Origin: a virus
DNA: 64,000 nucleotides
Direction: 5' to 3' (one strand)
Virus genome (UHGV): UHGV-0279745
Shown: positions 721 to 48,424 of the stretch, one piece after another
How positions within the stretch are numbered: position 1 is the stretch's first letter
How the letters are laid out: each line of letters starts with the position of its first letter
Program-made: the position numbers and the translations under genes
The notes under the pieces: model-generated
The model's database searches: none
What the model was told of the DNA's origin: nothing
Seen by the model: the letters and a program-made list of their open reading frames with translations, nothing else

Positions 721-1070
721 GTTCTCTGCGTATTTCTGATCGCGTCATCAAAGCACCTAATGCTAAACACTGGCCCACTAGACGGGAAACCTCTAGTGTG
801 TATCCCTCGAATTGCTGGAAACCCCTAAAGCTTACGATCCCGACAGGGTGGCGAAAGTCAGAAACAATTCGTAAGATAACCTATGCTAACCAATAATGCT
901 AAGGGTTGTGATAATGGATAACCAGCAGCGATGAAAATCGTTCAACGACTATCGAAAGGGTAAAACCGAGTAGAGTAGCTGCTTAGTTTAGCGGCGAAGT
1001 GGGGGAGACCTACGGGTAGCAATACCTACGGTTATGATATAGTCTGTGCCCATGTGAAAGCATGGGAGGG
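721..1070 (+). other. putative ORF-less group I self-splicing intron in the beta' gene (boundaries approximate)
   Basis: P-like AATTGCTGGAAA (810-821) pairs with Q-like CCAGCA (922-927); R-like TTCAACGACTATCG (941-954) and S-like GATATAGTC (1036-1044) give a GACTA/TAGTC P7 pairing. GNRA-type hairpins at 776-798 and 1048-1066. Stop codons in all frames around 894-915. Reading frame switches across the element. Confidence 0.6.
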
Positions 1071-7540: not shown

Positions 7541-9247
7541 ATGGCAATGAAACTTTTGAAACTACAAATGTATCCAGTGTACGAAATCCCAGAGCAGATT
7601 CGTCGTCGCATTGGGTTCTTTGAATCGCAGCACGCTTTGGATGAGTTAGTGGATGTGGTTGCAGAACATGGTGATAAAGCAACAGGTTCTCGGGCTTATC
7701 AAGAAGCCTTGGGGCAGATTGTGGGTTTCGACAATACCCCAACTGGCATTGAACGTCCATTCATTAACGTGAGTGATAACGAATCGCAACCAATCCATTT
7801 TGCGTATAATTCTCGCGATACTGGTGTGTATAACTTCGTGGCGATTATTGTTTCGAACTCGTTAAATGACACACGGACTCAAGAAACACGTTATGTTGTT
7901 TCCGGGTATACGTCCCAGGCAGAGCGATCCATGTTTAATCACCTGCCGGATGACATGGTTCTGTATATCAACGAAATATACGGGTTACAATGTACGTATA
8001 TCACCGATGCGTTTGGTGGACGTCGTATCAACCCGGATTCCTTCCGTTTGATAGACAACTATGTGTTGTCCAAGACATTAACCGCAGACAGCTATGTAGA
8101 GCACACCATTGACGTTATTTCTACCGCGAAAGCAGCTGATATGGTGCGTAAAGTGGTGAAAGCAGGTGAGCAGATTGAGCTGGATAACAACACCGTTATC
8201 TCCGCTAATTGCCAGCGTGCGCCACAGTTGATGTCTAGTCAATTAACCAGACCAGAATCTTTCGTGACGGCGATCTCCAATTCCTTTATTAACACCATGG
8301 GGATTGAAACGGAGTTGAGCGCAGTAGACAGCTTCTTCGCAGGAGATCATTCTCTTGGGGTAGAATCTGAACTTAGCCAGATTGGTGTGATGCGTAATTT
8401 CAACAGTTACGAGTTGGTGAAGGCTTTTAGAACCGCCATATCCAACGCCACGTCCGATATGACTAGCGGTTGGAACGTTGCGAACCGTGCAGCATTCAAA
8501 CTGTGCGACCTGCGTAACGCGGTGATTAATCCCGAAGATGTGGATGCTGCAATTGCGCACTCGCTGGCTGTCGCAGCCCGTCGTGGTTTTGGTGAAATTG
8601 AACGCACCGATGATTGGGTAGGACGTAACAACTATTCTACTCAGGGTTCGTTGGTGGCATTTGATTTAGCCATGTTACTGGGGCCTGTGGTCACTCGTAA
8701 CCTTATCGGCGAAGTGACTTTCTTCTACGATAACCGTATGGCGGATATTGCAACACCTCCTCTGCTGCAAGTGTCAAAACACAACGTTGGGGCATTAACT
8801 GAAGACGGATTACCGGATGTGTTAGCACGTCGCTTCTTAAGTGACTTACAAGGCGTGTTCTTGCAAGTGACTAAACACAACCGTATTCGTTGTAAGATGA
8901 CCGTAACGTGTATCGTTGGGGTGGTTTCACGTATTGAAATCGAAATCGATGGTGAGCTACCTGAGTATTATACTCATGCGTCGTTCATGAAAGCACGTCT
9001 GCATTGTGGTACAACGACTGACCTTCAGTACACGAACCAGTTAGCTGCAGAAACAGCGCAGCTGATGAACAAAGTGGAAGAAGGGTACCAAGAATTCAAC
9101 CGTGGTCAGAACCGTTCGAATATCCTGTCGAATATCCCAACTGCCCCTGTGTCTGCACCTACGAGCCTGGGTAGCTTCGGTAGCTTTGGTGGTGGCGATA
9201 TGTCAACCTCTGCGCCAGTGTCTGGCTTTGGTGCATTCGGCGAGTAA
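7541..9247 (+). CDS. hypothetical protein with Gly/Ser/Phe-rich C-terminal tail
   Basis: 568-aa ORF; RBS AAGGAG; C-terminus SLGSFGSFGGGDMSTSAPVSGFGAFGE. Confidence 0.6.
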   Translation: MAMKLLKLQMYPVYEIPEQIRRRIGFFESQHALDELVDVVAEHGDKATGSRAYQEALGQIVGFDNTPTGIERPFINVSDNESQPIHFAYNSRDTGVYNFVAIIVSNSLNDTRTQETRYVVSGYTSQAERSMFNHLPDDMVLYINEIYGLQCTYITDAFGGRRINPDSFRLIDNYVLSKTLTADSYVEHTIDVISTAKAADMVRKVVKAGEQIELDNNTVISANCQRAPQLMSSQLTRPESFVTAISNSFINTMGIETELSAVDSFFAGDHSLGVESELSQIGVMRNFNSYELVKAFRTAISNATSDMTSGWNVANRAAFKLCDLRNAVINPEDVDAAIAHSLAVAARRGFGEIERTDDWVGRNNYSTQGSLVAFDLAMLLGPVVTRNLIGEVTFFYDNRMADIATPPLLQVSKHNVGALTEDGLPDVLARRFLSDLQGVFLQVTKHNRIRCKMTVTCIVGVVSRIEIEIDGELPEYYTHASFMKARLHCGTTTDLQYTNQLAAETAQLMNKVEEGYQEFNRGQNRSNILSNIPTAPVSAPTSLGSFGSFGGGDMSTSAPVSGFGAFGE

Positions 9248-10625: not shown

Positions 10626-10635
10626 GTGAAGTATA

Positions 10636-10665
10636 AAAGAAGGGACTCGGTCCCTTCTTTTTTTA
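10636..10665. terminator. terminator hairpin between convergent genes
   Basis: Stem AGAAGGGAC/TCCCTTCT followed by a T-run; lies between the + gene ending 10625 and the - gene ending 10663. Confidence 0.55.
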
Positions 10666-20002: not shown

Positions 20003-20429
20003 ACCCGAACGAGATTCCTTCGGATCACGTCATTAATACGCTTAAGCTTGATACCACCTCTCTGTTCAAACAGCGTAGCACGCGCCCGATAACCTATCAG
20101 GAAGCCCACGATGAGCTTTTGGGTGCGTACGACTTATCGGTCGGCCTAGACACCGGGACGAGACACGTTGGCTTATCAGATTTTGAAAACCCCGAATACG
20201 GGAGTCTGTATGAAATCTGGATGGAAGTGTATCTGCGTGAGCAGATAGGCGAGCATTTCAGAATGACCTTCGACGAGTGGTTAAATCGACCACGGTGGGA
20301 GATTATGATGATGCTCCGTGTGCTTAATCGTCGTAAAGCCGCGATTAAGAAAGTCATGAGTGACGTTACTGCCGGTGACCCAGAGCTACAAGGTTTGGAG
20401 AAAGAACTTAAGCTGAAAAATTAAGTGTA

Positions 20430-20470
20430 AGGGAGTCGTAAAGACTCCCTTAGCTTTTTTCTTTTTTTTT
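20430..20470 (+). terminator. rho-independent terminator
   Basis: Stem GGGAGTC/GACTCCC followed by a long T-run. Confidence 0.65.
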
Positions 20471-20506
20471 TCGCTTTGGTATGAACCCCTTGTATTGGAA
20501 AAGGCT

Positions 20507-21361
20507 ATGATTGACATTTATACCGATTACGCTGCCGTTCTTACCGTCAATCGTGCGGAAGAACGTGCTGCGCCTTTCCTGGACTTAGTAACGCTGTGTA
20601 TGGATTACGGTTACGATGTTGCGTTAAGCGATGTGTATTGGCAACCGTCGTCTGATCCTGCCGACGAAACCGTAAGACTGGAAGGGATTATTGTAAAATG
20701 TGCCGTGGCGTTAGGCAACCGTTTAGGCGTTGCTTTAAACCCACAAGAAGTTTTCCGTAAACCGAAAGAGACCGTACGTATTCTGGATGGTATTACGTCT
20801 AAATTCGAAGAGTTCGAAGACACCGATACGCTATACGGTCTCGTGATGTCTGGAGAGACGCCAGAGTTTATCCTGGAAAGTATCTGCCGTTACGTATACG
20901 GCGATGACAATATCCATTTTGAAGATTTGGTCATTCGTGTTTCACCCCGTGTAATGACGGTGATGCGTAACTATCTCTCGGCTATGGTTGTGGATGAACA
21001 ACTCGCAGTAGGTAACGATGCGCGTCTGACACGTATTGCAGAATACTTGCGCCTTTATCCGCAAAACCCTTCTGCGTTCGTATTCCTAAACTTACCTGAA
21101 GATCCTGATTTGACGGTTGTTCAACAATCGTTAGTGTTTGACGTCGAAGATTACAGCGAAACAGAATTACTCGAGATGTATACGGTAGGGCTTTCGATTA
21201 TCGATAACGATGACTTTGATGACGCGTATGCCGATCTTTCGACGAACTTAGAGAAACTTAATAATGATGGGTTACAACCCATTACTGTTTTACAACCTGC
21301 ATTAAAAAGCCTACGGCTGATTTATCAGGTTGAGGAGGCAGAGCACGATGACGAGGTTTGA
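20507..21361 (+). CDS. hypothetical protein
   Basis: Start placed at ATG 20507 with RBS AAAAGG; the track's start at 20495 is TTG. Confidence 0.55.
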   Translation: MIDIYTDYAAVLTVNRAEERAAPFLDLVTLCMDYGYDVALSDVYWQPSSDPADETVRLEGIIVKCAVALGNRLGVALNPQEVFRKPKETVRILDGITSKFEEFEDTDTLYGLVMSGETPEFILESICRYVYGDDNIHFEDLVIRVSPRVMTVMRNYLSAMVVDEQLAVGNDARLTRIAEYLRLYPQNPSAFVFLNLPEDPDLTVVQQSLVFDVEDYSETELLEMYTVGLSIIDNDDFDDAYADLSTNLEKLNNDGLQPITVLQPALKSLRLIYQVEEAEHDDEV

Positions 21362-22649
21362 GTTCTTAGTAGCGGCATGTAAAGCTGAAGCGTGGCGACG
21401 TCTGGTTTGGCGTATTGCTATTTTTAACATGTCGGTGTTTCCAACAGGACGCGAAGAACCCGAAGCGTTTGATATAACGTATATCGACGGCTTACCGCAT
21501 TATTACGCTGTAGAAGACGGTAAGGGCAGTTGGGAACCGATTACTGACGGCGTAAAGGACCAGGAGCTGTTTGTCCCTGAAGAACAGTTCGAGCTACGCC
21601 CTGACGATTATCCCGGTTTAGACGGTCCTATTCCCACGACAGTAGGACGATACGTTTTTAACTGGATTGTTATCTGGTATGCATTTGGTACACGCTTACC
21701 CTATCTGGCGATTTCACAAAACCCGTTGGAATATCGCAAAGAGATGCATCGGCGTTGTTTAGACCATGAAACCGATGAGCCAGAAAACGAAGGTGCAATT
21801 CGACCGAGTATGATTGAGCGCTTTGTAAGCGGCTTACACGAGCTCGCACCGCTCACGTCAGGTATTGCACCAACCGGTACGTTACGAAGCCTCACGGTGC
21901 ATCCTGATGCGTATAAAATACGTGATGCGTTGCTATTAAAGCATAAGGACGAGTTAGACGATCCTGCCGTTATCGTTAAGATTGAAAAAGCGCTGGATGA
22001 GTTAGACAAAGAGTGGTTGTCGGGTGACCAATCTATTGAGTTTTATAACTCGCCGAAATCGCGGATGCGCCGACGTAAATTAATGCTGATGTACGGTATT
22101 GAATCGTCTTTTCAGGAAGGGGGTCATTATACGCTCATCCCGAACGCATTAGTTGAAGTTGATAAAGCGGGGATGGAAAACCTGGTTGCGAAATTTAACT
22201 CTATCCGTGAAGGTTCGTTCTCTCGTGGTGCGGAAACAGCGAAAGGGGGTGAGCAGGTACGTATTATCCAGATGATTTTCCAGAACCACCGAATCGTCCC
22301 TGGTGACTGTGGAACGAAACTAACGTATCCAGTTGTGATTACCGATGATAACGTAAAACGTTACGTTGGGATGAACGCGATGGTTAATGGTAAACTGACA
22401 CCACTGACTGAGGAATATTTAAAACAGCAGTTAGGTAAAGTGGTGCGGTTACGCCGACCCATCTTATGTCAGTATGGCCACATCGACACCTGCACAGCGT
22501 GTTCGTCTGCGAATAAAGGGGAAGAACCTCGCGCAATCGCTGCGGATATATCCTCGGCGTTCTCTAACGTTATGTCCGTGGCAATGGCCGCGATGCACGG
22601 TAAAGAGACAGTGGTACACGAATTTAATCCATCGATCCACATTACGTAA
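21348..22649 (+). CDS. hypothetical protein
   Basis: Start placed at ATG 21348 with RBS GAGGAGG; overlaps the preceding stop. Confidence 0.55.
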   Translation: MTRFEFLVAACKAEAWRRLVWRIAIFNMSVFPTGREEPEAFDITYIDGLPHYYAVEDGKGSWEPITDGVKDQELFVPEEQFELRPDDYPGLDGPIPTTVGRYVFNWIVIWYAFGTRLPYLAISQNPLEYRKEMHRRCLDHETDEPENEGAIRPSMIERFVSGLHELAPLTSGIAPTGTLRSLTVHPDAYKIRDALLLKHKDELDDPAVIVKIEKALDELDKEWLSGDQSIEFYNSPKSRMRRRKLMLMYGIESSFQEGGHYTLIPNALVEVDKAGMENLVAKFNSIREGSFSRGAETAKGGEQVRIIQMIFQNHRIVPGDCGTKLTYPVVITDDNVKRYVGMNAMVNGKLTPLTEEYLKQQLGKVVRLRRPILCQYGHIDTCTACSSANKGEEPRAIAADISSAFSNVMSVAMAAMHGKETVVHEFNPSIHIT

Positions 22650-22662
22650 GGATTATTAGCCA

Positions 22663-23172
22663 ATGGCAACTAAAGATATTTCGACACAAGATGAACGCCC
22701 ATCAGCGGTAAGACGCGCTGAGGAAAATGCGGTAACTTACAGTCAGGATGATGCGTACCAGGTGCGGCTTATTGCTACTCAGCTCGATGAGGCTGGCGGG
22801 GCAATTAGCCAAAATAAACCGAAAGATACCCCAGAAGCTGACGACGCTTTCCGTAAGCTGCATCAATCGTTCCGCACGTTATTTGAACTACGTGGTCAAG
22901 CATTCATTGATGCGTTCAACGTGTTCGTTGAAGCTGCAATTAAACACAAACGTGGTATCTTCTACTATCCGAATGTGAACTACCATTTGGATTGGTTTTA
23001 CGATTCCGCTGAACGTGAAACATACGTCGTGTTTATCAATATGTTAGTACGTTTCGCAAATTCTCAGGATAAAGCAAACTTTGCTCAGCGTGACAACGTT
23101 GGACGTTTGGTACAACGTGTGACTGATCCAGAACTGCAACACTTACTGGCTTACTGCTTCAACGCGGCATAA
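22663..23172 (+). CDS. hypothetical protein
   Basis: 169-aa ORF, followed by the terminator at 23176-23220. Confidence 0.5.
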   Translation: MATKDISTQDERPSAVRRAEENAVTYSQDDAYQVRLIATQLDEAGGAISQNKPKDTPEADDAFRKLHQSFRTLFELRGQAFIDAFNVFVEAAIKHKRGIFYYPNVNYHLDWFYDSAERETYVVFINMLVRFANSQDKANFAQRDNVGRLVQRVTDPELQHLLAYCFNAA

Positions 23173-23175
23173 AAG

Positions 23176-23220
23176 TATTACCCTACTCCCGAAGGAGTAG
23201 GGTAACGTTTATTTTTTTTT
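23176..23220. terminator. bidirectional terminator hairpin (12-bp stem TTACCCTACTCC)
   Basis: Stem 23178-23189 / 23194-23205, flanked by an A-run and a T-run; lies between convergent genes. Confidence 0.65.
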
Positions 23221-25000
23221 ACTTTGCAGCTTTGATGTATTCAAAAGGATCGGTAATTGTTTCTCCTTGTCTACGTAGAAAAGCTTCTAAGACGTCATTT
23301 TTATCGGGCAACAGGAAGAAATCTGTCGCGATTTCCATTGCATTGACTCGCCCCGCAGTAAGGTTAATACCGACACGACGCCGAACCTCTTCAGGAACAC
23401 CATGAATGCTCAGTAGCTCGATTAACGTTGTTTCACGAGACTGGTTCATCATGTTCGTTGCAGATGGGTATGCCTGGGTTAAGTCAGCATCTGCAGTTTG
23501 CCCACGGAAAGCCGTGTAGAAATCATCAACTTCCTTGATGATGTTTCGTAGCCCATTCTCTGCGTTCATACACGCAGTCAATGTAACAATCCAACCATCC
23601 GTCCCAATGACTTCATTGTCGAAATCGTTACGCATCGCGCTACCCACACAACCGATAACCAGGCCCTGTTCATAGAGGTAATACGTGTATGCAATACAGA
23701 TTCGCTTCGGTAGAGAAGGGAAAATATCATACATCGAATAACCCGCCAAAACTGAAATAGCAGAAGACAGATCGTTCGTCTTTTTATCGAGCAGAACAAT
23801 CATCAAGTTATCGAAGATGTTATAAACGCAGTATTCTAACGGGAAATCCTTCTGCGCCTTTAAGTGCCATTCCAACTTTTCCTCGTAGGGCAGTTCCGGT
23901 AAGTCCAACTTGTTTAAACCCAACTCGGTTTCCAGTATCGCGTTAAGTTTGTAAGAGGGGCGTTGTCCCTCGTGTACACGCAATGAACGGAATAGACACA
24001 TTGCATCTACACAGTAGAATGACGCCGTACAATAAAGAATGTGCCACTGTTGCGAAGGCGCTTTTGTTAATGACTTTGATTCTGTTTTCTTCGATGCTTC
24101 GTCTTTCTTAAAGTAGACACGACGGTACTGTTTTGGCACGTCAGGATGACAGAAGACGTCTTCCGGTGGAATCCCCGCAGCTTCTAAAGCTTCCAACATA
24201 CGTGAAATATCGAACTCGTGGTTCCATGCGACGAGTAAGTCAGGAAGCCGAGGATGAATTTCTTCAAACATCCGTTGAATGCAACAACCTGAATTGAGGC
24301 ATTCGTAAACGAAGATTTTGTAACCATCGATAACGTTTTTGTATTTAACGATGGGGTTGTCGTTCTCGTCTTTTCCACGAAAAGCGATTTTAGAAAGCAA
24401 TTCTTGAGCACGTTTGACGAGTCGTGCTTCAAAGTTTTCACGTCCGCAACGGGTGACGTAGTCTTTCGTAGCAAAGAAATGAATTTCGTCGTCTAAAACA
24501 AAACTCATAATCCAGGGGTCTCGAGACTTATCTTCTTCTCGAGTTTCCACGTCGTATACACAGATACGGTTAGGAGAAACGGCATTAGGCCATTTACGCA
24601 TGTACTTTTCTTTAATCCAGCTAGTAATGGGCAAATCAGCCCAGTAAACATACGGTGAAGTACAAACCTGACGGAGCGGTTTCTTTTTATCGGGAAAACG
24701 AATCCCCAGACCCATCTGTATGGTTGAGGACATCATTACATCCGTTGTTAAATATTCCTGGCACTTACTACGTTCTTCGTATTCTTTCTTTTCCTTGTGG
24801 TTACGATGCTGTGGTAAAGTAATGTAGATGGGCCGTTTCAGATTTTCACGCATGACAATTCGTGGGATATATCTGCCATCTTTAGTATGGACGACCTCCT
24901 TTATGAGCACGAAGTCGTTTTCTTTCTGCTGATCGGTTGCGTAAGAAACAAACTTGCACTCCTTGGCAATAACGTCTTCCGGTGCGTAATAGTTATTCAT
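23219..25000 (-). CDS. DNA polymerase family-B-like protein, 3'-5' exonuclease module
   Basis: Exo I ICVYDVETRE, Exo II VAWNHEFD and Exo III YCVYNIFD in canonical order; possible motif-A-like MYDIFPSLP. Start placed at the Met of MNNYYAPED (24998-25000) because the longer track ORF would overlap the divergent gene. Confidence 0.6.
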   Translation of the reverse strand: MNNYYAPEDVIAKECKFVSYATDQQKENDFVLIKEVVHTKDGRYIPRIVMRENLKRPIYITLPQHRNHKEKKEYEERSKCQEYLTTDVMMSSTIQMGLGIRFPDKKKPLRQVCTSPYVYWADLPITSWIKEKYMRKWPNAVSPNRICVYDVETREEDKSRDPWIMSFVLDDEIHFFATKDYVTRCGRENFEARLVKRAQELLSKIAFRGKDENDNPIVKYKNVIDGYKIFVYECLNSGCCIQRMFEEIHPRLPDLLVAWNHEFDISRMLEALEAAGIPPEDVFCHPDVPKQYRRVYFKKDEASKKTESKSLTKAPSQQWHILYCTASFYCVDAMCLFRSLRVHEGQRPSYKLNAILETELGLNKLDLPELPYEEKLEWHLKAQKDFPLEYCVYNIFDNLMIVLLDKKTNDLSSAISVLAGYSMYDIFPSLPKRICIAYTYYLYEQGLVIGCVGSAMRNDFDNEVIGTDGWIVTLTACMNAENGLRNIIKEVDDFYTAFRGQTADADLTQAYPSATNMMNQSRETTLIELLSIHGVPEEVRRRVGINLTAGRVNAMEIATDFFLLPDKNDVLEAFLRRQGETITDPFEYIKAAK

Positions 25001-25071
25001 GATTTCACTCTCAAATCTAGCGGCTGCTATACTGATTTGTGGGTAATGTAATTTCTCAAAAGGAAACACAA

Positions 25072-26406
25072 ATGGGATATTGGCAAAATCACATTGCATC
25101 AGTTGCGGATGCAAAGGTTGTAGCCGCAGAATCGATTAAATTCCAAGACAAAAAGAAGCTGGCAGAATTGGCTGATGTTATTGCTAAGTTTCGTGGGGCA
25201 GGCGATTTCAGTCCTGCAGGCTACGAAAGTGCCGGGGTTTCGGATTGGGTATTTAAGAATATCGGCATTACGATTCACTTTAAGAACGGTAGCGAACTGG
25301 GTCTTGTTGACGTTGCTTTTGCAGGCGTAGAACCACCGAAATTGGATGCAAACAGTCCAATCATTGCATCGATGACTCGCGCACTGTACGCAGGTAACAA
25401 AGACCTGGATATGTACAGTAAGTTCATCAAAGAAAATGAACTGAACACATCTATCGATGACAGCAGTGCAAAAATCAGTGGCGATTTAAGCAAAGTGGGT
25501 TCTCCGCTTTATCTTACCCCGGTGCTGCTGGAAAAATTAAATTTGACCGATCTGGAAATCGCCTCGGTGATTCTTCATGAAGTCGGCCACATCTACTATT
25601 ATTTCCGTACGCTAATGCGTACCGTGGTGACTGATTTGCTGGCAGATGCTGCGGCTAACCGCATCATGGAAACAGAGGACCAGACTGTCCGCTTGCGCAT
25701 TGTTAAAGACGTAGAGAAGATGCTGAACACGAAAGTGAATCAGCCAGAGACCATCTGTACCGAGTACAAAAAAGAAAACGTCTACATGCACTTAGTCACG
25801 CAGTTGTTATTAGATCGCCCGTTCATTAGCGGTAGTCAAGGCTTTGCTAACAGAACGTGGGAACGTGCTGCGGACGATTTTGCTTCCCGTTTCGGGGGCG
25901 CTCCTTATCTGGCCTCTGCACTGTATAAAATGGAAACCAGTTCGTTCTATTTGCTGCGGAACTCAGCGTATATGAACATGGGTGTCCATTTGACAGTAGA
26001 ACTTTTCCGCGTGACTGCGCTGATAGTCTCTTCTACGATTCCAATTATTCCAGTGATTTCCGTGACGTTCGGAATGATCTTAAATGACCCGGATAACACC
26101 ATTTACGATCCGCCGCAGCAGCGTTTTGAGGCAATGCGACGTACACTCGTTGAAGAACTCAATACGATTAAAGACAAAAATACGAAGGCGGCTAACGAGC
26201 AACGTAAACGTATTTTAGATGGTATTGCGGTTATTGACAAGTTATTAGAAATCGTAAAAGATAAAGATAACTTGTATCAGTTTATCTGGAATACTTTAAC
26301 GCCGAAGGGTCGTCGCTCACGTGCTGCCGTTGATTACCAGCGTGCGATTGGGAAGTATATGTCGAACGATCTTCGTATTGCTTCAGCCATGTTTAATGTC
26401 GAATAA
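25072..26406 (+). CDS. putative zinc metallopeptidase-like protein (HExxH motif)
   Basis: ILHEVGHIYYY contains the HExxH zincin signature; RBS AAGGA; start placed at the first ATG. Confidence 0.4.
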   Translation: MGYWQNHIASVADAKVVAAESIKFQDKKKLAELADVIAKFRGAGDFSPAGYESAGVSDWVFKNIGITIHFKNGSELGLVDVAFAGVEPPKLDANSPIIASMTRALYAGNKDLDMYSKFIKENELNTSIDDSSAKISGDLSKVGSPLYLTPVLLEKLNLTDLEIASVILHEVGHIYYYFRTLMRTVVTDLLADAAANRIMETEDQTVRLRIVKDVEKMLNTKVNQPETICTEYKKENVYMHLVTQLLLDRPFISGSQGFANRTWERAADDFASRFGGAPYLASALYKMETSSFYLLRNSAYMNMGVHLTVELFRVTALIVSSTIPIIPVISVTFGMILNDPDNTIYDPPQQRFEAMRRTLVEELNTIKDKNTKAANEQRKRILDGIAVIDKLLEIVKDKDNLYQFIWNTLTPKGRRSRAAVDYQRAIGKYMSNDLRIASAMFNVE

Positions 26407-26420
26407 GTAAAGGTAAAATC

Positions 26421-26864
26421 ATGACGCATAAAGTTTCTTTAAATTCCCTGGTTCTGGACTTTAAACGTACGAACGAGGGTAAAGGTGTACAGGCACAACG
26501 CGCACTGACTGGCCTGGTCGCATTCGCATTGGCTTATAATACCGACATGCCCGATAATGGTCCGTTTGGGTCGAATGAAGTGTCGCAGCTAAAGCTTCGC
26601 CCGCTGATGAAAAATGTTGTTTCGGACGTAAACGAGCTTTATTGTGTCGATCTGGGCAGCATTGAAGATTTGACAGTGGCACTGTTTTGTAACCGCTACG
26701 ATAGCGCCTGGGGTGGTCGTCGCGCTATTGAAAACTTCTCTGTCCGTGAGATTTTCAATGAAGCCTTGGGCGACGATGTATGGGATACCGTTAATCTGTG
26801 GCTGGAACGTTTCATGGAAACGGTGAAATTCTATATGGAAGAAACGCGAGGCGAGCTGGTATGA
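26421..26864 (+). CDS. hypothetical protein
   Basis: 147-aa ORF with RBS AAGG. Confidence 0.55.
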   Translation: MTHKVSLNSLVLDFKRTNEGKGVQAQRALTGLVAFALAYNTDMPDNGPFGSNEVSQLKLRPLMKNVVSDVNELYCVDLGSIEDLTVALFCNRYDSAWGGRRAIENFSVREIFNEALGDDVWDTVNLWLERFMETVKFYMEETRGELV

Positions 26865-28531
26865 GTATGGAGATGACAGCAAACATTGCGCAACCGCAGT
26901 GGAAACTCGATGAACTTCCTGCACTGTTAGAACAGCGCATGGAAGAACGCATCGATTCTGTTAGCCAACTCAATCTCTACATGCAACGAAATGAAGCAGA
27001 CCTGATTTACGGTTCTCGCCTTATCGCGCAAATTGAAGCGATCTTACGGGAAATACGTAATGCAGGGTTGAACCGTGATGTTGCTGTAGCGACTGAATCG
27101 TTGCGTCCTGGCACAATCCCGAAGGCGGTACAAAGTGTCCTGACGTCGAATTATTCCAAAACACACCAGAAAGAAACGGTGGTGGCATTAGAGTCTTACG
27201 CCAATTTTGGTAAGATTAGCCTTATCGTGATGGTGATGATGGGGATAATGAAAATCCTCAGTTGGATTATCAGCAACGCCGTTCCTTTTGCAGGTGCTGC
27301 GAATATTGACGGGAACGACTATCGCGAGAAACTGGAAGAGAAGTTGGCCGATGTTCCTTTCACAGAGCGCCTGAAAACAACCGTACTGAAAGAAGTTTAT
27401 CTGGTACTGTCAAAAGGTTTGAAAGACAGCGAGTTAAGCAACCTGGAGTTATCTCTTTCGCTGGCTGACGACGTTTTTGTGAACATGGAAGCTGAAGAGT
27501 TTCTAAATAAACTCGCCGCTGCGTTAGGTAAATCACCGTTTATCGATACGTTTAAGAACCATCTTAAACGTCGGCAGAATGAGCTGCAGGTTATTCAGGA
27601 TCTGCTCGATACGCTGCTTCGGACGAATATCGGCTACGGTGTATTTGACTTCGGGGTTGCTGAGGAAGTCTATAACGGTTTGCCGCCTGATGTAAAACGT
27701 GCTGGAGTGAACATTCCGTCAGATATTCAGTTCAACTTAATGAGCACGCTTCTTGACAGTTTTGCCGGTGCGCTTCAGGACTTAGACCAGTCGCTGAAAG
27801 ACATCAAAACCTATTACCTGTCGAATAATCCGAAGGTAGGCACATCGCAAGAGAACCAAGTTGCCGCTGTGCATCTGGTTCGTGCGTTAGGCGAGATCAA
27901 TGGCCGAATTGAATATACTGCCACGGAATTTGGACGACAGAAAGGTAGCCCGGGTCCAATTTTGCGTGTAAAAGACAAGGTTGAGCTTCTCGGCTATACC
28001 ACACGTGAATTAGACAACGGTTGGATGATTGCGTCGATCGGTGCTAACTCTTTCTTTGGCTCCACAACAAACCTGGAGATGATGCGCCAGGAGTTGAGCT
28101 TAAGTAACGGGGATTACCGTGAGCTGTTGGCATGTCTGATTACACTGGCACGTAGTGGTATCTCGGATGGTGTAGCGAACACCGCGCTAGACAAGTATAA
28201 GGTGTTGGAGAAACGTGTCGATCAGGTTGTAAAAACCCTGAAAGATATGGCACGTCAATCACGTTCTGGCGTCGACAGTCAGAAATGGCAGGCGATGGAA
28301 CAGGCGTTTAAAGACCAAGTGACGCGAGGGGAAAACTTTAACCTTCACGGTCGTGAACTGACCACGATGATGGTGTTAAACCCTGACCGTAATGTCTGGG
28401 ATTCTGTTGCGCACAGTGCAAACATGATTAACATGTGGTGCAAGGCCGCAGGGTCTATGGCAACGGTGTTGAAGCGTGCCAAGTCCAACCCACTTGTGAA
28501 AGGTGGGAAGTTCAATAAATTGATCGATTAA
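26861..28531 (+). CDS. hypothetical protein (possible transmembrane segment)
   Basis: Start placed at ATG 26861, overlapping the upstream stop; hydrophobic stretch ISLIVMVMMGIMKILSWIISNAV. Confidence 0.55.
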   Translation: MSMEMTANIAQPQWKLDELPALLEQRMEERIDSVSQLNLYMQRNEADLIYGSRLIAQIEAILREIRNAGLNRDVAVATESLRPGTIPKAVQSVLTSNYSKTHQKETVVALESYANFGKISLIVMVMMGIMKILSWIISNAVPFAGAANIDGNDYREKLEEKLADVPFTERLKTTVLKEVYLVLSKGLKDSELSNLELSLSLADDVFVNMEAEEFLNKLAAALGKSPFIDTFKNHLKRRQNELQVIQDLLDTLLRTNIGYGVFDFGVAEEVYNGLPPDVKRAGVNIPSDIQFNLMSTLLDSFAGALQDLDQSLKDIKTYYLSNNPKVGTSQENQVAAVHLVRALGEINGRIEYTATEFGRQKGSPGPILRVKDKVELLGYTTRELDNGWMIASIGANSFFGSTTNLEMMRQELSLSNGDYRELLACLITLARSGISDGVANTALDKYKVLEKRVDQVVKTLKDMARQSRSGVDSQKWQAMEQAFKDQVTRGENFNLHGRELTTMMVLNPDRNVWDSVAHSANMINMWCKAAGSMATVLKRAKSNPLVKGGKFNKLID

Positions 28532-28535
28532 AAAA

Positions 28536-28580
28536 GATTACCCTACTCCCGGAGGAGTAGGGTAACTTTTATTATTTTTT
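28536..28580. terminator. bidirectional terminator hairpin (same 12-bp stem as 23176-23220)
   Basis: Stem TTACCCTACTCC / GGAGTAGGGTAA at 28538-28549 / 28554-28565, followed by a T-run; lies between convergent genes. Confidence 0.65.
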
Positions 28581-28581
28581 C

Positions 28582-31536
28582 TTAATCGGCGGTAGTATCG
28601 TGACGGTTATAAACAATCACGATATCGTCTTTAAGTCCGATGTCGCCGCTGGCCTCAATGTCCAGCTTTTTACCTATAGTTGCTCTTGATGCTTCCGAAA
28701 CAACGGTAAAGAGACGCATGTCTTTATCTGGTCCCATAGCATCGAGTTCAACACCGATAATAGACGCATCGAGGGTTTCACTCAACGCATTACCGATTTC
28801 TGTTGCAGAGATCGTTAGATGACTACCCAAGTAATCATTGATAACCTGAGACGTTTTCTTACGAATCTGCGTTAAGAGCTCGGTGTTATTACGGTTAGCA
28901 GCTGTTAGGTAATAACGCACGGTGAACTGGTTTTCCGCAGGGACAGGCGTTACTACCCCGTCCTCGGTACGGGCGTCGATATACCCCATTGTTGTAATCG
29001 GCACAAAGTAACCTTCGGTACGTTCTAACAACATAGGTTTCAAAGTCGGAAGTATTACCGTAACGTAGTTAACGATGTTTTCGATAACTTCATTCAGATA
29101 CGATTTTGCAGAAGGTGTCGTCGCGAATTTATATCGCGCATCGAATACCGCCATCTCACTACGGAATTTGATAGAACGCGATTTCGCAATCTTCGGATTG
29201 CCGAATTCGTCTTTAACTAAGTCTCCTTCACGATGTAGGACGATCTGTTGTCCAGCCTCGTCGAGTTTTGGATCACCTTTACGATGCTCGTACGTAATCT
29301 GAAGTGGTGGCGTGCGACCTGCGTCGTAGGTGTAGATTGGTACACCGTTCTCATCGCGTTTAACCACATCGATTTCCCACGTTGCCATCACGTCTTTTTC
29401 GTAATACTGGTAGTTAATGCTGTCAGTAACAGCACGCGCTTTACGCCAGTAGTACGTCATTGCTTTACCCAATTCGATTTTGAAAATCTCGTGAGTAATA
29501 CCAATCGCATCGCGTGACGGGGCAGTGATTAACGCATCCATTTCCGCACGTTCGTAATTACCAGGATAATAACCGGTGCAGCCGTAGAACAGGTTGAAGT
29601 CCGTCATCAGCGGTACAGGCGTTTCCGTGGGTGTGCTACTACTAATGCGTGTATTCGTTAGCATTAATTCGTCGTTACGGTCAACGTCTAGGTTGGTTTC
29701 CAGCAGGAATTCCCAAACGCGTTCACTACCCTGTTTACCGACTAACGTACCGTTGATATACGCTAAAGTGTTGTCTGCGTTACGTGGACGGAACGATAGC
29801 TGTGCAAAAACTTGATCGTCGGTCAGTGCTTGATAAGGTGCTTCTGACTTCGTTACGGTGCGCAATACGTAACCTGCTTCGGTCTTTTCGATAGTGTAGT
29901 CGGCTGTTACCACACTGAGTTCCGTGCTTACGTTAGTGGCAATAAAGCGTTTGGAGTTTAACGTCGGTTTATCTAATTGATAAATACGAACGTCAATGGC
30001 TTTGTTGTTGATATCCACAACGTAATGGAATGGTGTAAAGAGATAACGATTAGCGTTGGCCGCGTTAATCAAATCTTCTTTACGCATGGTTTTTGCCAAG
30101 ACCGTCATCTCCGCATCAACCGTCAGGCTGGTGTCGGTGAACCGATAAAGTGTGTCAGGAAGAATCGTCAGGCGATTACCGTTAACCTTTACCGTTGGTA
30201 GATTAACCAATTCATTCCAGGAGAAATAGAACGGTGCCGTGATTGTCCCGATGGGAGAACTGACATTAGGAATTGTCGATTCGAGCATCGGTGCCGTTAA
30301 GAAGTAAGTACGGCTAGTAACATAGTCGTTTGGTTTCGACAACGTTAGACCGTAGTCAGAAACCGTTGCTTCTAATTGTTTCTCCGTTACAGGGAGTTTT
30401 CGTGCACCTACAGCGTTGTTGACTACACGTGTACGCAAATCTTCGAACGTGAGCTGGCTACGACCACCTGACAACATTTTACCTGCTTTTGCAGCCATCT
30501 GTTTGATGGAAAAACTCTTAATCGGGTTAACGTAGTTTTCGTCGTATTCGCCGTTTAAATCACGCAATGTAAACGTGTATTCGTCAGACGGATAAGCCGA
30601 GATATCGACACTTAAAGGCCCTAAGGTCGTGTAGATATCCATACGAATTTCGCCGCTGACCAAGTTCTTCGCCATGTAGATCGAGGGGATAGTACACCGT
30701 ATAACACCGTCACCGACCTGGATTAACGCGGTTGGGGTGTTGGGGTCGTAAACGTCACGACTGTGCGTATGCTGAATTTCAACCCACTTGTTATCGTTGG
30801 TTGATTTCATCCACACCCTTACGTAGAAAAATTTGTTAGTGTAATGGCGGGTCATGACAAAGGTATTTTTCCCCGCAACGGTGTCACTTTCGTTCTTCAC
30901 CGCATACTGCATAACCGGGATATGGATTGCCAGTAGTTGCGAGGCCGTGGTGTTAGACGACGTCAACTCCCAATCCAGCGCATTCGTCGACACAGGAGAA
31001 ATAGGTGACTGTGTTTCGGTAATCCAAAGAACCTGAAACGCTGGGTTTTCATTGGTGCCGTAAGGAAGTACCCTGATTTCAATCGGGTACTGGATGGCAA
31101 AGGTGTAACCTGACACCGTGAAAACTGTGTCACGTGGGATAACAACCTTACGCACACCCGCAATCTGTAAAGGGTACGCCTTAGAGATTAAACTATCAAC
31201 ATCGATTAATAACAACAGCTCGGTGGTTGAAGGTTGGGCGAACACATCAACGTAGTCCACATCGGACATATGTCGGAACAGGTCGTCGTACGTTTGTGCC
31301 ATCGATGGAAATGTCTTTGGCACTGATTCTTGCAACCCCATAAGCGTTGCATGGCCCAACATTGTCCCCATTTCCGCCAAATAAACAACAGGGTCTGTTG
31401 GGTCACGTAGCACTATTTGGCCTTCGGCGTCTTCTACATCCAGAAGCTGATTCAAGAGCAGTGTTTGCATCGCTGCCGGATGGTGGGCAAACAACAATAT
31501 GTTCTTTGCCAAAGTATCGTAAGTCGTAGAACTCAT
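28582..31536 (-). CDS. hypothetical large protein (possible virion structural protein)
   Basis: 984-aa ORF on the minus strand, translationally coupled to the upstream minus gene. Confidence 0.6.
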   Translation of the reverse strand: MSSTTYDTLAKNILLFAHHPAAMQTLLLNQLLDVEDAEGQIVLRDPTDPVVYLAEMGTMLGHATLMGLQESVPKTFPSMAQTYDDLFRHMSDVDYVDVFAQPSTTELLLLIDVDSLISKAYPLQIAGVRKVVIPRDTVFTVSGYTFAIQYPIEIRVLPYGTNENPAFQVLWITETQSPISPVSTNALDWELTSSNTTASQLLAIHIPVMQYAVKNESDTVAGKNTFVMTRHYTNKFFYVRVWMKSTNDNKWVEIQHTHSRDVYDPNTPTALIQVGDGVIRCTIPSIYMAKNLVSGEIRMDIYTTLGPLSVDISAYPSDEYTFTLRDLNGEYDENYVNPIKSFSIKQMAAKAGKMLSGGRSQLTFEDLRTRVVNNAVGARKLPVTEKQLEATVSDYGLTLSKPNDYVTSRTYFLTAPMLESTIPNVSSPIGTITAPFYFSWNELVNLPTVKVNGNRLTILPDTLYRFTDTSLTVDAEMTVLAKTMRKEDLINAANANRYLFTPFHYVVDINNKAIDVRIYQLDKPTLNSKRFIATNVSTELSVVTADYTIEKTEAGYVLRTVTKSEAPYQALTDDQVFAQLSFRPRNADNTLAYINGTLVGKQGSERVWEFLLETNLDVDRNDELMLTNTRISSSTPTETPVPLMTDFNLFYGCTGYYPGNYERAEMDALITAPSRDAIGITHEIFKIELGKAMTYYWRKARAVTDSINYQYYEKDVMATWEIDVVKRDENGVPIYTYDAGRTPPLQITYEHRKGDPKLDEAGQQIVLHREGDLVKDEFGNPKIAKSRSIKFRSEMAVFDARYKFATTPSAKSYLNEVIENIVNYVTVILPTLKPMLLERTEGYFVPITTMGYIDARTEDGVVTPVPAENQFTVRYYLTAANRNNTELLTQIRKKTSQVINDYLGSHLTISATEIGNALSETLDASIIGVELDAMGPDKDMRLFTVVSEASRATIGKKLDIEASGDIGLKDDIVIVYNRHDTTAD

Positions 31537-47591: not shown

Positions 47592-47604
47592 AAGCAACCC
47601 CTAA

Positions 47605-47650
47605 TCCCGAAAAGGATTAGGGGTACACTTTATTTATTTTCGCATTTTCA
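47605..47650 (+). terminator. rho-independent terminator
   Basis: Stem CCCCTAATCC / GGATTAGGGG followed by a T-rich tract. Confidence 0.6.
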
Positions 47651-47667
47651 ACATAGGAGAAAAGTTC

Positions 47668-47826
47668 ATGAAACATGAACAGTTGTTTCAAAGGCTAAAC
47701 GAGTTGTCCGTAAAACAGCTCGAATTTCAACGAAGGGTTAGTGAAATAGCGCAACCAACGTTAACTCAGCCCAAAGTTGCTTATCCAAGAAACACCCAGT
47801 TGATAGTTGAAAGGAGAAGTAACTGA
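47668..47826 (+). CDS. hypothetical small protein (52 aa)
   Basis: Not in the ORF track; RBS AGGAGA 7 nt upstream of the ATG; followed by a hairpin cluster. Confidence 0.35.
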   Translation: MKHEQLFQRLNELSVKQLEFQRRVSEIAQPTLTQPKVAYPRNTQLIVERRSN

Positions 47827-47833
47827 TAAAAAA

Positions 47834-47922
47834 CAAGGGGTGTGTCAGCACCCCTTTTCTTAGCTTTAACTTTTCCGAAGAGAAGTTAAAGCAAGGTACG
47901 CTGCACCAACAGCGTACCTTTT
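47834..47922 (+). terminator. cluster of three consecutive stem-loops (terminator or structured RNA)
   Basis: Hairpins AAGGGGTG/CACCCCTT (47835-47856), CTTTAACTT/AAGTTAAAG (47864-47891) and GGTACGCTG/CAGCGTACC (47895-47918) followed by TTTT. Confidence 0.45.
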
Positions 47923-48114
47923 ACAGCACCATTACGGAAACGTAATGGATTTCTTTAATCACCCTACAAAGAGGGCTTATACCATGAACAATGGTTACTA
48001 CTTTACTGACAAAATGCTTGCAGAACAGAGTGCAACAGAGACTGGCGGAACAGTCTCTGCTGTACGGTGTCAACACATAAAGTTGTTGACGTTTTTACAA
48101 CATTACGAAAGGTA

Positions 48115-48282
48115 ATGAAAATGAACGAATATCAAATACAGATGTTCAATACCGCGATGCGAAATCGTGAAAAACAAATTCAGTTTAACCAACGCATGGA
48201 CGAATATGTTCGTCTCGGCCTCGTTGCGGCACCGAAAACGGTTAACAACCACAATGTTCACCAACCACCTGTAAGGAGATAA
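48115..48282 (+). CDS. hypothetical small protein (about 55 aa)
   Basis: ATG at 48115 or 48121 with GAAAGG upstream; the track's GTG-extended version is 48067-48282; followed by a hairpin at 48299-48319. Confidence 0.35.
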   Translation: MKMNEYQIQMFNTAMRNREKQIQFNQRMDEYVRLGLVAAPKTVNNHNVHQPPVRR

Positions 48283-48424
48283 GTTACTAACTAATAAAGG
48301 GGGTGTTGCTACCACCCCCTGCTTAGTTCGGTAGTTGTTTTCCATTCATAATTAATAGTCTTCTGTTTTTTTTTGCTTTCCGAGACGCATAAGGGGTTAT
48401 AGGGGGAGCCGAAGCTCCCCAGAC

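What the first reader, a model, noticed from the sequence alone, without database searches (positions are those of the whole stretch)
23176..28580. Identical 12-bp-stem terminator hairpin reused at two convergent gene junctions
The hairpin TTACCCTACTCC-(CGAA or CGGA)-GGAGTAGGGTAA occurs at 23178-23205 and 28538-28565, both between convergently transcribed genes and flanked by A- and T-runs, consistent with bidirectional termination. Reuse of the exact stem suggests a conserved element (terminator, processing or packaging-related) rather than chance.
Basis: seen in the sequence. Interest (0 to 1): 0.35.

Follow-up and report, generated by a model that had tools for sequence, protein, structure and literature searches.

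The report
Reused jumbo-phage bidirectional terminator hairpin
Two identical 12-bp hairpins sit between convergent genes of a giant (phiKZ/SPN3US-like) phage; they look like two copies of a sequence-conserved family of two-way transcription stop signals that this phage group reuses at many gene junctions, which is a fairly ordinary element with some unusual evolutionary behaviour.

Summary
TTACCCTACTCC-CGAA-GGAGTAGGGTAA lies at 23178-23205 and the same stem with loop CGGA at 28538-28565. Each starts 5-6 nt after the stop codon of a + strand gene and ends 13-16 nt before the stop codon of a - strand gene, with A-rich and T-rich flanks.

The window is a nucleus-forming-type jumbo phage related to Erwinia/Salmonella SPN3US-like phages. 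Both junctions (the 169-aa ORF meeting DNA polymerase; the 577-aa ORF meeting a 984-aa virion protein) are syntenic in every relative examined, out to Pseudomonas phage EL. In every one both junctions carry a perfect 8-16 bp hairpin.

The stem is not limited to two sites. A 97.9%-identical relative has at least 5 copies, all at convergent junctions. phiEaH2 has about 14 family members among 38 strong hairpins.

The 5' arms never contain G (0 of 443 bases), and a TTTAT box follows the stem. This is the architecture published for the conserved phiKZ and 201phi2-1 terminators, though the phiKZ consensus itself does not match.

The exact A=B identity reflects copying between sites. Loops flip and mutate rapidly.

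Best reading: bidirectional intrinsic terminators of a clade-specific conserved family. Function is inferred; no 3'-end data exist. Moderate interest.

The parts
22663..23172 (+). 169-aa ORF (phrog_7825, unknown function), last gene of the + strand unit that includes an RNAP beta-subunit gene (21330-22649). Its stop codon is 5 nt before hairpin A.
   Evidence: syntenic in all relatives
23166..23177 (.). A-rich left flank of site A (GGCATAAAAGTA, includes the TAA stop). On the - strand it reads ACTTTTATGCC, which is the T-tract/TTTAT box for the - strand transcript.
23178..23205 (.). Hairpin A: 12-bp perfect stem TTACCCTACTCC/GGAGTAGGGTAA with loop CGAA (UUCG tetraloop on the - strand transcript).
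23206..23218 (.). T-tract of site A for the + strand transcript (CGTTTATTTTTTT), containing the TTTAT box.
23219..25114 (-). DNA polymerase gene (phrog_3011), converging on site A.
26798..28531 (+). 577-aa ORF (phrog_8131), last gene of the + strand three-gene unit 25039-28531. Its stop codon is 6 nt before hairpin B.
28529..28537 (.). A-rich left flank of site B (TAAAAAAGA). On the - strand it reads TCTTTTTTA, the T-tract for the - strand transcript.
28538..28565 (.). Hairpin B: the same 12-bp stem with loop CGGA (UCCG, a UNCG-type loop, on the - strand transcript).
28566..28581 (.). T-tract of site B for the + strand transcript (CTTTTATTATTTTTTC), containing the TTTAT box.
28582..31536 (-). 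984-aa virion structural protein gene (phrog_3248), converging on site B.
   Evidence: annotated as a virion structural protein in relatives

Best explanation
Both hairpins are bidirectional intrinsic (factor-independent) transcription terminators and 3'-end stabilisers. They close four convergent transcription units and so insulate the DNA-polymerase unit and the adjacent three-gene unit from their neighbours. RNA from either strand folds the same 12-bp stem and then runs into a T-tract. They belong to a sequence-conserved terminator family of phiKZ/SPN3US-like (Chimalliviridae-type) jumbo phages. The family's features are a G-free, C-rich 5' arm of the type (T)TACC(C/T)(T)ACTCC, a variable loop, a G-rich 3' arm, then Y-TTTAT-T(n). 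The two stems are identical because family members within a genome are homogenised by copying between sites (short-patch gene conversion, possible in either orientation because the element is a palindrome). Template switching between the two arms of one hairpin keeps stems perfect and flips loops. Shown here: the anatomy, positional orthology, multi-copy family, conservation, compensatory changes, lineage-specific shared states and loop inversions. Inferred: that transcripts actually end here, which polymerase is terminated, and the copying mechanism.
For: Anatomy: the stop codons sit 5-6 nt before and 13-16 nt after a -21 to -25 kcal/mol hairpin with T-tracts on both strands.

Orthology: the same two junctions carry a perfect 8-16 bp hairpin in all 20 genomes examined, from 5 SPN3US-like genera plus the window lineage and EL.

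Structural selection: stems change by paired substitutions. phiEaH2 B is CTACCCACTCC and Asesino B is CTACCTACTCC, with the matching G>A in the 3' arm. Against a relative that is only 79-80% identical in nucleotides, the 44 core stem bases at A and B show 0 changes.

Family: the pattern TACCCTACTCC-N3-9-GGAGTAGGGTA occurs at 5 distinct sites in each of two close relatives. Every one of these sites whose downstream gene lies within the fetched DNA is a convergent junction. In the complete phiEaH2 genome about 14 of 38 hairpins with a stem of at least 9 bp share YACTCC-loop-GGAGTR, and 15 of 17 annotated convergent junctions hold such a hairpin.

Copying between sites: orthologous sites A, B and D all read TACCCTACTCC in the window lineage but TACCCACTCC in phiEaH2. 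Copies at different sites in one genome also share loops and flanks: phiEaH2 59500 and 208041, L041 and L046, L055 and L056, SPN3US L053 and L058 as reverse complements, and window CGAA versus CGGA.

Not host-derived: only 2 hits in 596 Gb of bacterial genomes.

Published analogue: 61 intrinsic terminator regions, identified at ONT-cappable-seq-mapped termination sites of phiKZ, share a C-rich arm, a G-rich arm and then TTAT, and 6 bidirectional terminator regions lie between convergent genes (PMC10914365). 201phi2-1 has a similar motif, 15 bidirectional terminators, and 8 terminators validated in vivo (PMC11512511). The window shares this architecture: 0 G in 443 5'-arm bases and TTTAT after the stem.
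Against: There are no transcript 3'-end data for this phage or any SPN3US-like phage (literature searches). The - strand T-tract at site A is short (ACTTTTATGCC, four T). The literal phiKZ consensus is absent from the window (0 matches allowing 3 mismatches). Gene conversion alone does not explain why flanks differ between most copies while the stem is exact, why the 5' arm never carries G, or why CTCC/GGAG next to the loop at site B survives to phage EL (about 32% protein identity in the neighbouring gene). These points suggest additional sequence-level selection. Sites D, E and F were seen only in close relatives, because they fall outside the 64-kb window.
Confidence: 0.72

Rival explanations
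1. The hairpin is a sequence-specific signal, not merely a structure. A conserved phage factor reads the G-free TACCC..CTCC / GGAG..GGGTA stem. Candidates are the non-canonical phage RNA polymerase itself, a termination or antitermination factor, a 3'-end processing nuclease, or an RNA-binding or export protein of the phage nucleus. Identity between sites would then be maintained by selection for the recognised sequence. This reading can coexist with termination.
For: The 5' arms contain 0 G in 443 bases across 20 genomes in 8 lineages. The loop-proximal CTCC at site B is kept in 17-20 of 20 genomes, including EL. The same stem, with matching bases beyond the searched 10-mer (CCTACCCACTCCC), recurs in deeply divergent phages with 24-39% protein identity to the window or phiEaH2. 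Two composition-matched shuffled stems gave 4 and 8 hits, and none was in a contig related to these phages. Loop length varies from 3 to 9 nt, so the folded hairpin is the functional form rather than a duplex dimer site. [quoted passage not shown]
Against: Many other junctions in the same genomes use unrelated stems. The stem drifts between genera (Wellington CCCACCTCC, Derbicus ACCTACCCCC, phiKZ CCYCCCC). No candidate binding protein was identified. Only two control stems were tested. 201phi2-1 terminators work in an uninfected Pseudomonas host, so no phage factor is strictly required there.
Confidence: 0.2
2. The element acts at the DNA level. The palindromes extrude as cruciforms or single-strand hairpins and serve as recombination, replication or packaging signals. 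Alternatively they are a mobile REP/MITE-like palindrome that has spread to several intergenic sites.
For: Loops are inverted between near-identical genomes, which requires the two arms to interact in DNA. Copies are dispersed, and stems are perfect palindromes.
Against: The positions are orthologous across genera, so they are not insertion polymorphisms. Wherever both flanking genes could be read, the copies lie exactly between stop codons of convergent genes with T-tracts on both sides, as expected for RNA 3' ends. There are only 2 hits in 596 Gb of bacterial genomes. Nothing links the sites to a terminase gene or a genome end. Deletion between the direct copies would remove the DNA polymerase gene.
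Confidence: 0.05
3. The match is coincidence or independent convergence: two unrelated terminators happen to share a 12-bp stem.
For: Terminator stems in this phage draw on a restricted C-rich, G-free composition, which raises the chance of partial similarity.
Against: An exact 12/12 match is expected about 0.008 times in the window. The loops differ by one base and the flanks are similar. At least 5 identical copies occur per genome in relatives. Shared derived states are seen in sub-lineages: the outer pair is lost and GGGTAGC appears at both A and B in L006 and L007.
Confidence: 0.01

Closest known systems
Conserved intrinsic terminator motif of Pseudomonas phage phiKZ (5'-BCCYCCCCHWWDGGGRRGGBYTTATKYYGT-3'; Putzeys et al. 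2024, PMC10914365) and motif A of phage 201phi2-1 (PMC11512511)
   Same: The phage group is the same: multisubunit phage RNAP genes and synteny shared with EL. There are many copies per genome. The 5' arm is C-rich and G-poor and the 3' arm is G-rich, followed by a TTAT box and T-rich tail. Some copies act bidirectionally between convergent genes.
   Different: The stem sequence and length differ: 11-12 bp (T)TACCCTACTCC here against about 7 bp CCYCCCC. The published consensus has no match in the window even allowing 3 mismatches. No 3'-end mapping exists for this clade. Exact identity between sites and lineage-specific homogenisation were not taken from those papers.
Canonical bacterial bidirectional Rho-independent terminators at convergent gene pairs
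   Same: A palindromic GC-containing stem is flanked by an A-tract and a T-tract immediately after two facing stop codons. UNCG-type tetraloops are present.
   Different: Bacterial terminators are normally unique in sequence. Here one stem is reused at several sites, the strand composition of the arms is strictly asymmetric, and the stem base is A/T-rich (TTA...TAA).
PeSLs, the composite promoter-early/stem-loop cassettes of T4-type phages (Arbiol et al. 2010, PMC2839356; Comeau et al. 2014, PMC4122927)
   Same: These are repeated, sequence-conserved terminator stem-loops dispersed in a large virulent phage genome that can recombine with one another.
   Different: PeSLs carry an early promoter and flank variable gene modules that they shuffle. 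Here the hairpins sit between conserved core genes with invariant synteny, and there is no room for a promoter and no promoter-like site.
Template-switch mutations and spacer inversion at short inverted repeats (PMC8794818; PMC8604942)
   Same: Stems are kept perfect, compensatory double changes arise in one step, and loops are reverse-complemented between close relatives.
   Different: That work describes a general mutational mechanism in cellular genomes. Its operation in phage terminators is inferred here from sequence comparison only.

Membership tests
Bidirectional intrinsic (Rho-independent) terminator | Stable stem-loop formed by the transcript of either strand | tested here: met
   12-bp perfect stem. 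Free energy is -21.2 and -23.2 kcal/mol at A and -23.5 and -24.9 kcal/mol at B (+ and - strand). z = -4.9 to -7.2, with 0 of 200 shuffles as stable.
Bidirectional intrinsic (Rho-independent) terminator | U-tract directly 3' of the stem on both strands | tested here: met
   + strand: CGTTTATTTTTTTTT (A) and CTTTTATTATTTTTT (B). - strand: CTTTTTTAAT (B) and the weaker ACTTTTATGC (A). All four pass the scan.
Bidirectional intrinsic (Rho-independent) terminator | Lies between the stop codons of convergent genes | tested here: met
   The arrangement is conserved in all relatives.
Bidirectional intrinsic (Rho-independent) terminator | Transcript 3' ends map to the T-tract | not testable with these tools
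   No transcriptome was found for this phage or for SPN3US-like phages.
phiKZ-type conserved jumbo-phage terminator motif | Genome belongs to the phiKZ-like, RNAP-encoding jumbo-phage group | tested here: met
   RNAP beta-subunit genes are present (phrog_2962, phrog_2987). Nucleotide and protein similarity and synteny link the window to Erwinia and Salmonella SPN3US-like phages and to Pseudomonas phage EL.
phiKZ-type conserved jumbo-phage terminator motif | C-rich 5' arm and G-rich 3' arm | tested here: met
   5' arms at sites A and B in 20 genomes contain A 72, C 264, T 107 and G 0.
phiKZ-type conserved jumbo-phage terminator motif | TTAT box just after the stem | tested here: met
   CGTTTAT at A and CTTTTAT at B. 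About 7-8 of roughly 15 strong window hairpins are followed by TTTAT or TTAT.
phiKZ-type conserved jumbo-phage terminator motif | Match to the published consensus BCCYCCCCHWWDGGGRRGGBYTTATKYYGT | tested here: not met
   0 matches in the window allowing up to 3 mismatches. This element shares the architecture but has a different consensus, so it is not filed as a literal member.
phiKZ-type conserved jumbo-phage terminator motif | Many copies of one motif per genome | tested here: met
   5 exact 11-bp-stem copies in each of two close relatives. About 14 family members in phiEaH2.
PeSL-type mobile regulatory cassette (T4-type phages) | Stem-loop coupled to a conserved promoter | tested here: not met
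   The hairpins are bounded within 5-16 nt by stop codons on both sides, and no promoter-like site is adjacent.
PeSL-type mobile regulatory cassette (T4-type phages) | Flanks variable gene modules and indels between close relatives | tested here: not met
   The flanking genes are conserved, with the same synteny from this phage to EL.
REP/MITE-like mobile palindrome | Insertion polymorphism, or presence in host genomes | tested here: not met
   The sites are orthologous across genera. There are only 2 hits in 596 Gb of bacterial genomes, and neither shows homology to the phage.
REP/MITE-like mobile palindrome | Associated hairpin-specific transposase (RAYT/TnpA-like) | not tested
   The whole genome was not available, and no such gene was looked for in the window.

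The most novel reading that the evidence does not exclude
The G-free TACCC(N)CTCC / GGAG(N)GGGTA stem is a clade-wide, sequence-specific hairpin signal read by a conserved jumbo-phage factor. Candidates are the non-canonical phage RNA polymerase or a hairpin-binding protein acting on transcript 3' ends inside the phage nucleus. Recognition, rather than structure plus copying, would then explain its persistence at orthologous junctions from Pseudomonas phage EL to this enterobacterial-type phage.
Probability: 0.22. Interest if true: 0.65.

Novelty: new variant of a known kind. Interest (0 to 1): 0.38.

Why it matters
How the non-canonical RNA polymerases of nucleus-forming jumbo phages terminate transcription is not understood. 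A terminator family with a fixed strand asymmetry and a stem conserved far beyond what structure requires offers defined sequences for in vitro termination assays, using wild-type, arm-swapped and shuffled stems. It would also supply compact bidirectional terminator parts. Separately, the data give a clean natural example of short regulatory hairpins evolving in concert, by copying between sites, one-step compensatory changes and frequent loop inversion. That matters for anyone using intergenic hairpins as phylogenetic characters or reading loop differences as functional. If the elements are simply terminators, the finding is useful annotation rather than a discovery.

Tried and rejected
- Chance: rejected by the exact-match expectation and the multi-copy data.
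- Known RNA family: the Rfam gathering scan of the whole window found only a group I intron elsewhere. There are no tRNAs.
- Host-derived or REP-like element: the scan of 596 Gb of bacterial genomes gave 2 unrelated hits.
- Literal phiKZ terminator consensus: 0 matches.
- More family members in the window: ACTCC-N3-9-GGAGT finds only A and B, and the 12-mer allowing 2 mismatches gives only chance hits. The other copies lie outside the 64 kb.
- Direct repeats bounding a mobile or excisable 5.3-kb cassette: rejected. The interval holds the DNA polymerase gene and is syntenic in all relatives.
- Duplex-DNA operator for a dimeric protein: rejected. Arm spacing varies from 3 to 9 nt between copies.
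- Packaging signal: no supporting context.
- Deep recurrence of the stem as a mere composition effect: two randomly shuffled same-composition stems gave 4 and 8 IMG/VR hits, none in related phages. This weakens a pure composition explanation, but two controls are few.
- Literature: searches for terminator mapping in SPN3US-like phages found nothing.
Full report
**1. Observation**

The reported sequences are present exactly where stated. TTACCCTACTCC-CGAA-GGAGTAGGGTAA lies at 23178-23205 (site A). TTACCCTACTCC-CGGA-GGAGTAGGGTAA lies at 28538-28565 (site B).

The 12-mer has no other exact copy in the window. The two extra hits allowing 2 mismatches are at chance level. A census of perfect hairpins and the terminator scan show about a dozen other strong terminator-like hairpins in the 64 kb. 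Each has its own stem, so a shared 12-bp stem is not a composition effect.

Similarity extends beyond the stem:
- Site A: TAAAAGTA-stem-CGTTTATTTTTTT
- Site B: TAAAAAAGA-stem-CTTTTATTATTTTTT

The loops differ by one base. On the - strand the loops read UUCG and UCCG, both UNCG-type tetraloops closed by C-G. Folded as RNA, all four strand/site combinations give -21 to -25 kcal/mol, z = -4.9 to -7.2.

**2. Context**

The window is from a jumbo phage. It is about 75% identical in nucleotides, over parts of the region, to Erwinia phages of the SPN3US-like group. It carries phage multisubunit RNAP genes.

| Site | + strand gene ending at the site | - strand gene ending at the site |
|---|---|---|
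| A | 169-aa ORF (22663-23172), last gene after an RNAP beta-subunit gene | DNA polymerase gene (23219-25114) |
| B | 577-aa ORF (ends 28531) | 984-aa virion protein gene (28582-31536) |

Each hairpin starts 5-6 nt after the + strand stop codon and ends 13-16 nt before the - strand stop codon. The two hairpins therefore bracket one divergent pair of transcription units: DNA polymerase leftwards and three genes rightwards.

**3. Relatives: positional conservation**

The gene order around both sites is the same in every relative fetched:
- four IMG/VR contigs of the window's own lineage (79-98% nucleotide identity);
- fourteen cultured phages assigned in their records to Erskinevirus, Machinavirus, Seoulvirus, Wellingtonvirus and Derbicusvirus;
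- Pseudomonas phage EL.

In all 20 genomes both junctions hold a perfect 8-16 bp hairpin with A-rich and T-rich flanks. So hairpins at these two positions are ancient and were not recently inserted.

Stems change by paired substitutions. For example, phiEaH2 B is CTACCCACTCC and Asesino B is CTACCTACTCC, with the matching G>A in the other arm. Against contigs that are only 79-80% identical to the window, the 44 core stem bases at A and B have not changed. This is the signature of selection on the folded structure.

**4. The stem is a multi-copy family**

- **Window lineage.** A scan of IMG/VR for TACCCTACTCC-N3-9-GGAGTAGGGTA found five distinct sites in each of two close relatives, one of them 97.9% identical to the window. 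They are A, B and three more (D, E, F) that fall outside the 64-kb window. Every site whose downstream gene lies within the fetched DNA is a convergent junction.
- **phiEaH2-type variant.** The variant TACCCACTCC likewise occurs 4 times in phiEaH2, 3 times in a contig the size of ChrisDB (244,840 bp), and 2 times in SPN3US.
- **Whole-genome census.** In the complete phiEaH2 genome, about 14 of 38 perfect hairpins with a stem of at least 9 bp share the core YACTCC-loop-GGAGTR. Of 17 annotated convergent junctions, 15 hold such a hairpin, and 13 of those 15 have a C-rich 5' arm.
- **Not host-derived.** The stem has only 2 unrelated hits in 596 Gb of bacterial genomes.

**5. Why A and B are identical**

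In most genera A and B have different, though family-like, stems. pEa_SNUABM_4, for example, has A = ACCTCACTACCC and B = CTACCCACTCC.

In the window lineage A, B, D, E and F all read TACCCTACTCC. In phiEaH2 the orthologues of A, B and D all read TACCCACTCC, and the orthologue of E reads CTACCTACTCC (orthology by tblastn of flanking genes; stems). The same paired one-base difference at three orthologous sites cannot plausibly have arisen independently. It indicates copying between sites.

Further signs of copying:
- Copies at different sites in one genome share loops and flanks: phiEaH2 59500 and 208041 both have TTTGCG. L041 and L046 share TTTACG plus the same 3' flank, L055 and L056 both have CGAA, and the two SPN3US copies have reverse-complementary loops.
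- The L006/L007 sub-lineage lost the outer T-A pair and gained GGGTAGC at both A and B.

I therefore read the A=B identity, with the one-base loop difference, as a fairly recent conversion between two members of the family.

**6. Loop behaviour**

Loops evolve much faster than their surroundings and are often exactly reverse-complemented between close relatives while stem and flanks stay fixed.
- L006 and L007 are 97.1% identical, yet they differ by loop inversion at all three strong hairpins in the 14.5 kb.
- Window B is CGGA and L008 B is TCCG.
- Wellington B is CGTAAA and pEa_SNUABM_11 B is TTTACG.

This matches template switching between inverted-repeat arms, a mechanism known to invert spacers and homogenise arms (PMC8794818 and PMC8604942, found). 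It also explains why the stems are always perfect.

**7. Comparison with what is known**

ONT-cappable-seq of phiKZ mapped 133 termination regions. Sixty-one intrinsic terminator regions share the motif BCCYCCCC-HWWD-GGGRRGG-BYTTATKYYGT, and six bidirectional terminator regions lie between convergent genes (PMC10914365). 201phi2-1 has a similar motif in 59 terminators and 15 bidirectional terminators, and eight terminators were active in vivo (PMC11512511).

The hairpins here share that architecture:
- The 5' arms at A and B in 20 genomes contain 0 G in 443 bases.
- The 3' arm is G-rich.
- A TTTAT box follows the stem.
- EL site A is followed by TATTATGCGGT, close to the phiKZ tail.

The literal phiKZ consensus is nevertheless absent from the window, and the stem here is longer and different. 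I therefore file this as a clade-specific variant of a known kind of element, not as a member of the phiKZ motif itself.

PeSL cassettes of T4-type phages (PMC2839356, PMC4122927) are a looser analogue. The resemblance fails on two defining points: there is no promoter, and the flanking genes are conserved core genes.

**8. What remains unexplained**

Structure plus copying does not predict three things:
- the complete absence of G from the 5' arm;
- the near-invariance of CTCC/GGAG next to the loop at site B, out to EL (about 32% protein identity in the adjacent gene);
- the recurrence of CCTACCCACTCCC-type stems in several deeply divergent relatives.

Two randomly shuffled stems of the same composition gave only 4 and 8 hits, none in related phages. 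This leaves room for a sequence- or strand-composition-specific reading of the hairpin by the phage transcription machinery or a binding factor. I give that reading about 0.2.

**9. Verdict**

The packaging idea has no support.

Interest is moderate. Terminators of this general design are published for related phages. New here are the clade-specific consensus, its depth of conservation, the evidence of copying between sites, and the loop flip-flop.

Noticed in passing
window 749-1066 (+): Group I intron (Rfam RF00028, 58.6 bits, E = 2.7e-12) interrupting an RNA polymerase beta-subunit gene. ORF 3-896 matches phrog_2987 only up to residue 254 (about nt 765), close to where the intron match begins. 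An intron in a virion RNAP beta-subunit gene is also reported for 201phi2-1 (PMC11512511).
   Followed up: partly
L006 vs L007 (sites A, B, C); window 28550-28553 vs L008; L018 vs L016 site B: Hairpin loops are exact reverse complements between near-identical genomes while stems and flanks are unchanged. L006 and L007 are 97.1% identical and differ this way at all three strong hairpins in 14.5 kb. This suggests frequent template switching or a mixed population of loop orientations.
   Followed up: partly
window 20428-20452 and about 20476-20492 (+): A third strong hairpin (TAAGGGAGTC-GTAAA-GACTCCCTTA) plus T-run lies between co-directional genes. It is followed by a box conserved across genera (GCYTTGGTATGAAYCC) containing TATG, possibly a phage-RNAP promoter coupled to the terminator.
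   Followed up: no
window 47592-48345: A stretch of about 750 nt with no long ORF holds six 8-11 bp hairpins (47597, 47835, 47893, 47929, 48036, 48298), beside a DnaB-like helicase gene (48425-49987, - strand). It contains no tRNA and no Rfam family. It could encode small RNAs or small ORFs.
   Followed up: no
window 10635-10661: The convergent-junction hairpin AAAAGAAGGGAC-TCG-GTCCCTTCTTTT has a purine-rich 5' arm, the opposite polarity to the A/B family. phiEaH2 has a similar-stem hairpin at 195384 (AAGAAGGGAC). It is an exception to the G-free 5'-arm rule.
   Followed up: no
L086 (Pseudomonas phage EL, NC_007623) 1945-1982 and 7947-7978: EL keeps the same gene order and has family-like stems at both orthologous junctions: TTACTACCCCTCTCCC at A, followed by TATTATGCGGT, and CCTACCCACTCCC at B.
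   Followed up: yes
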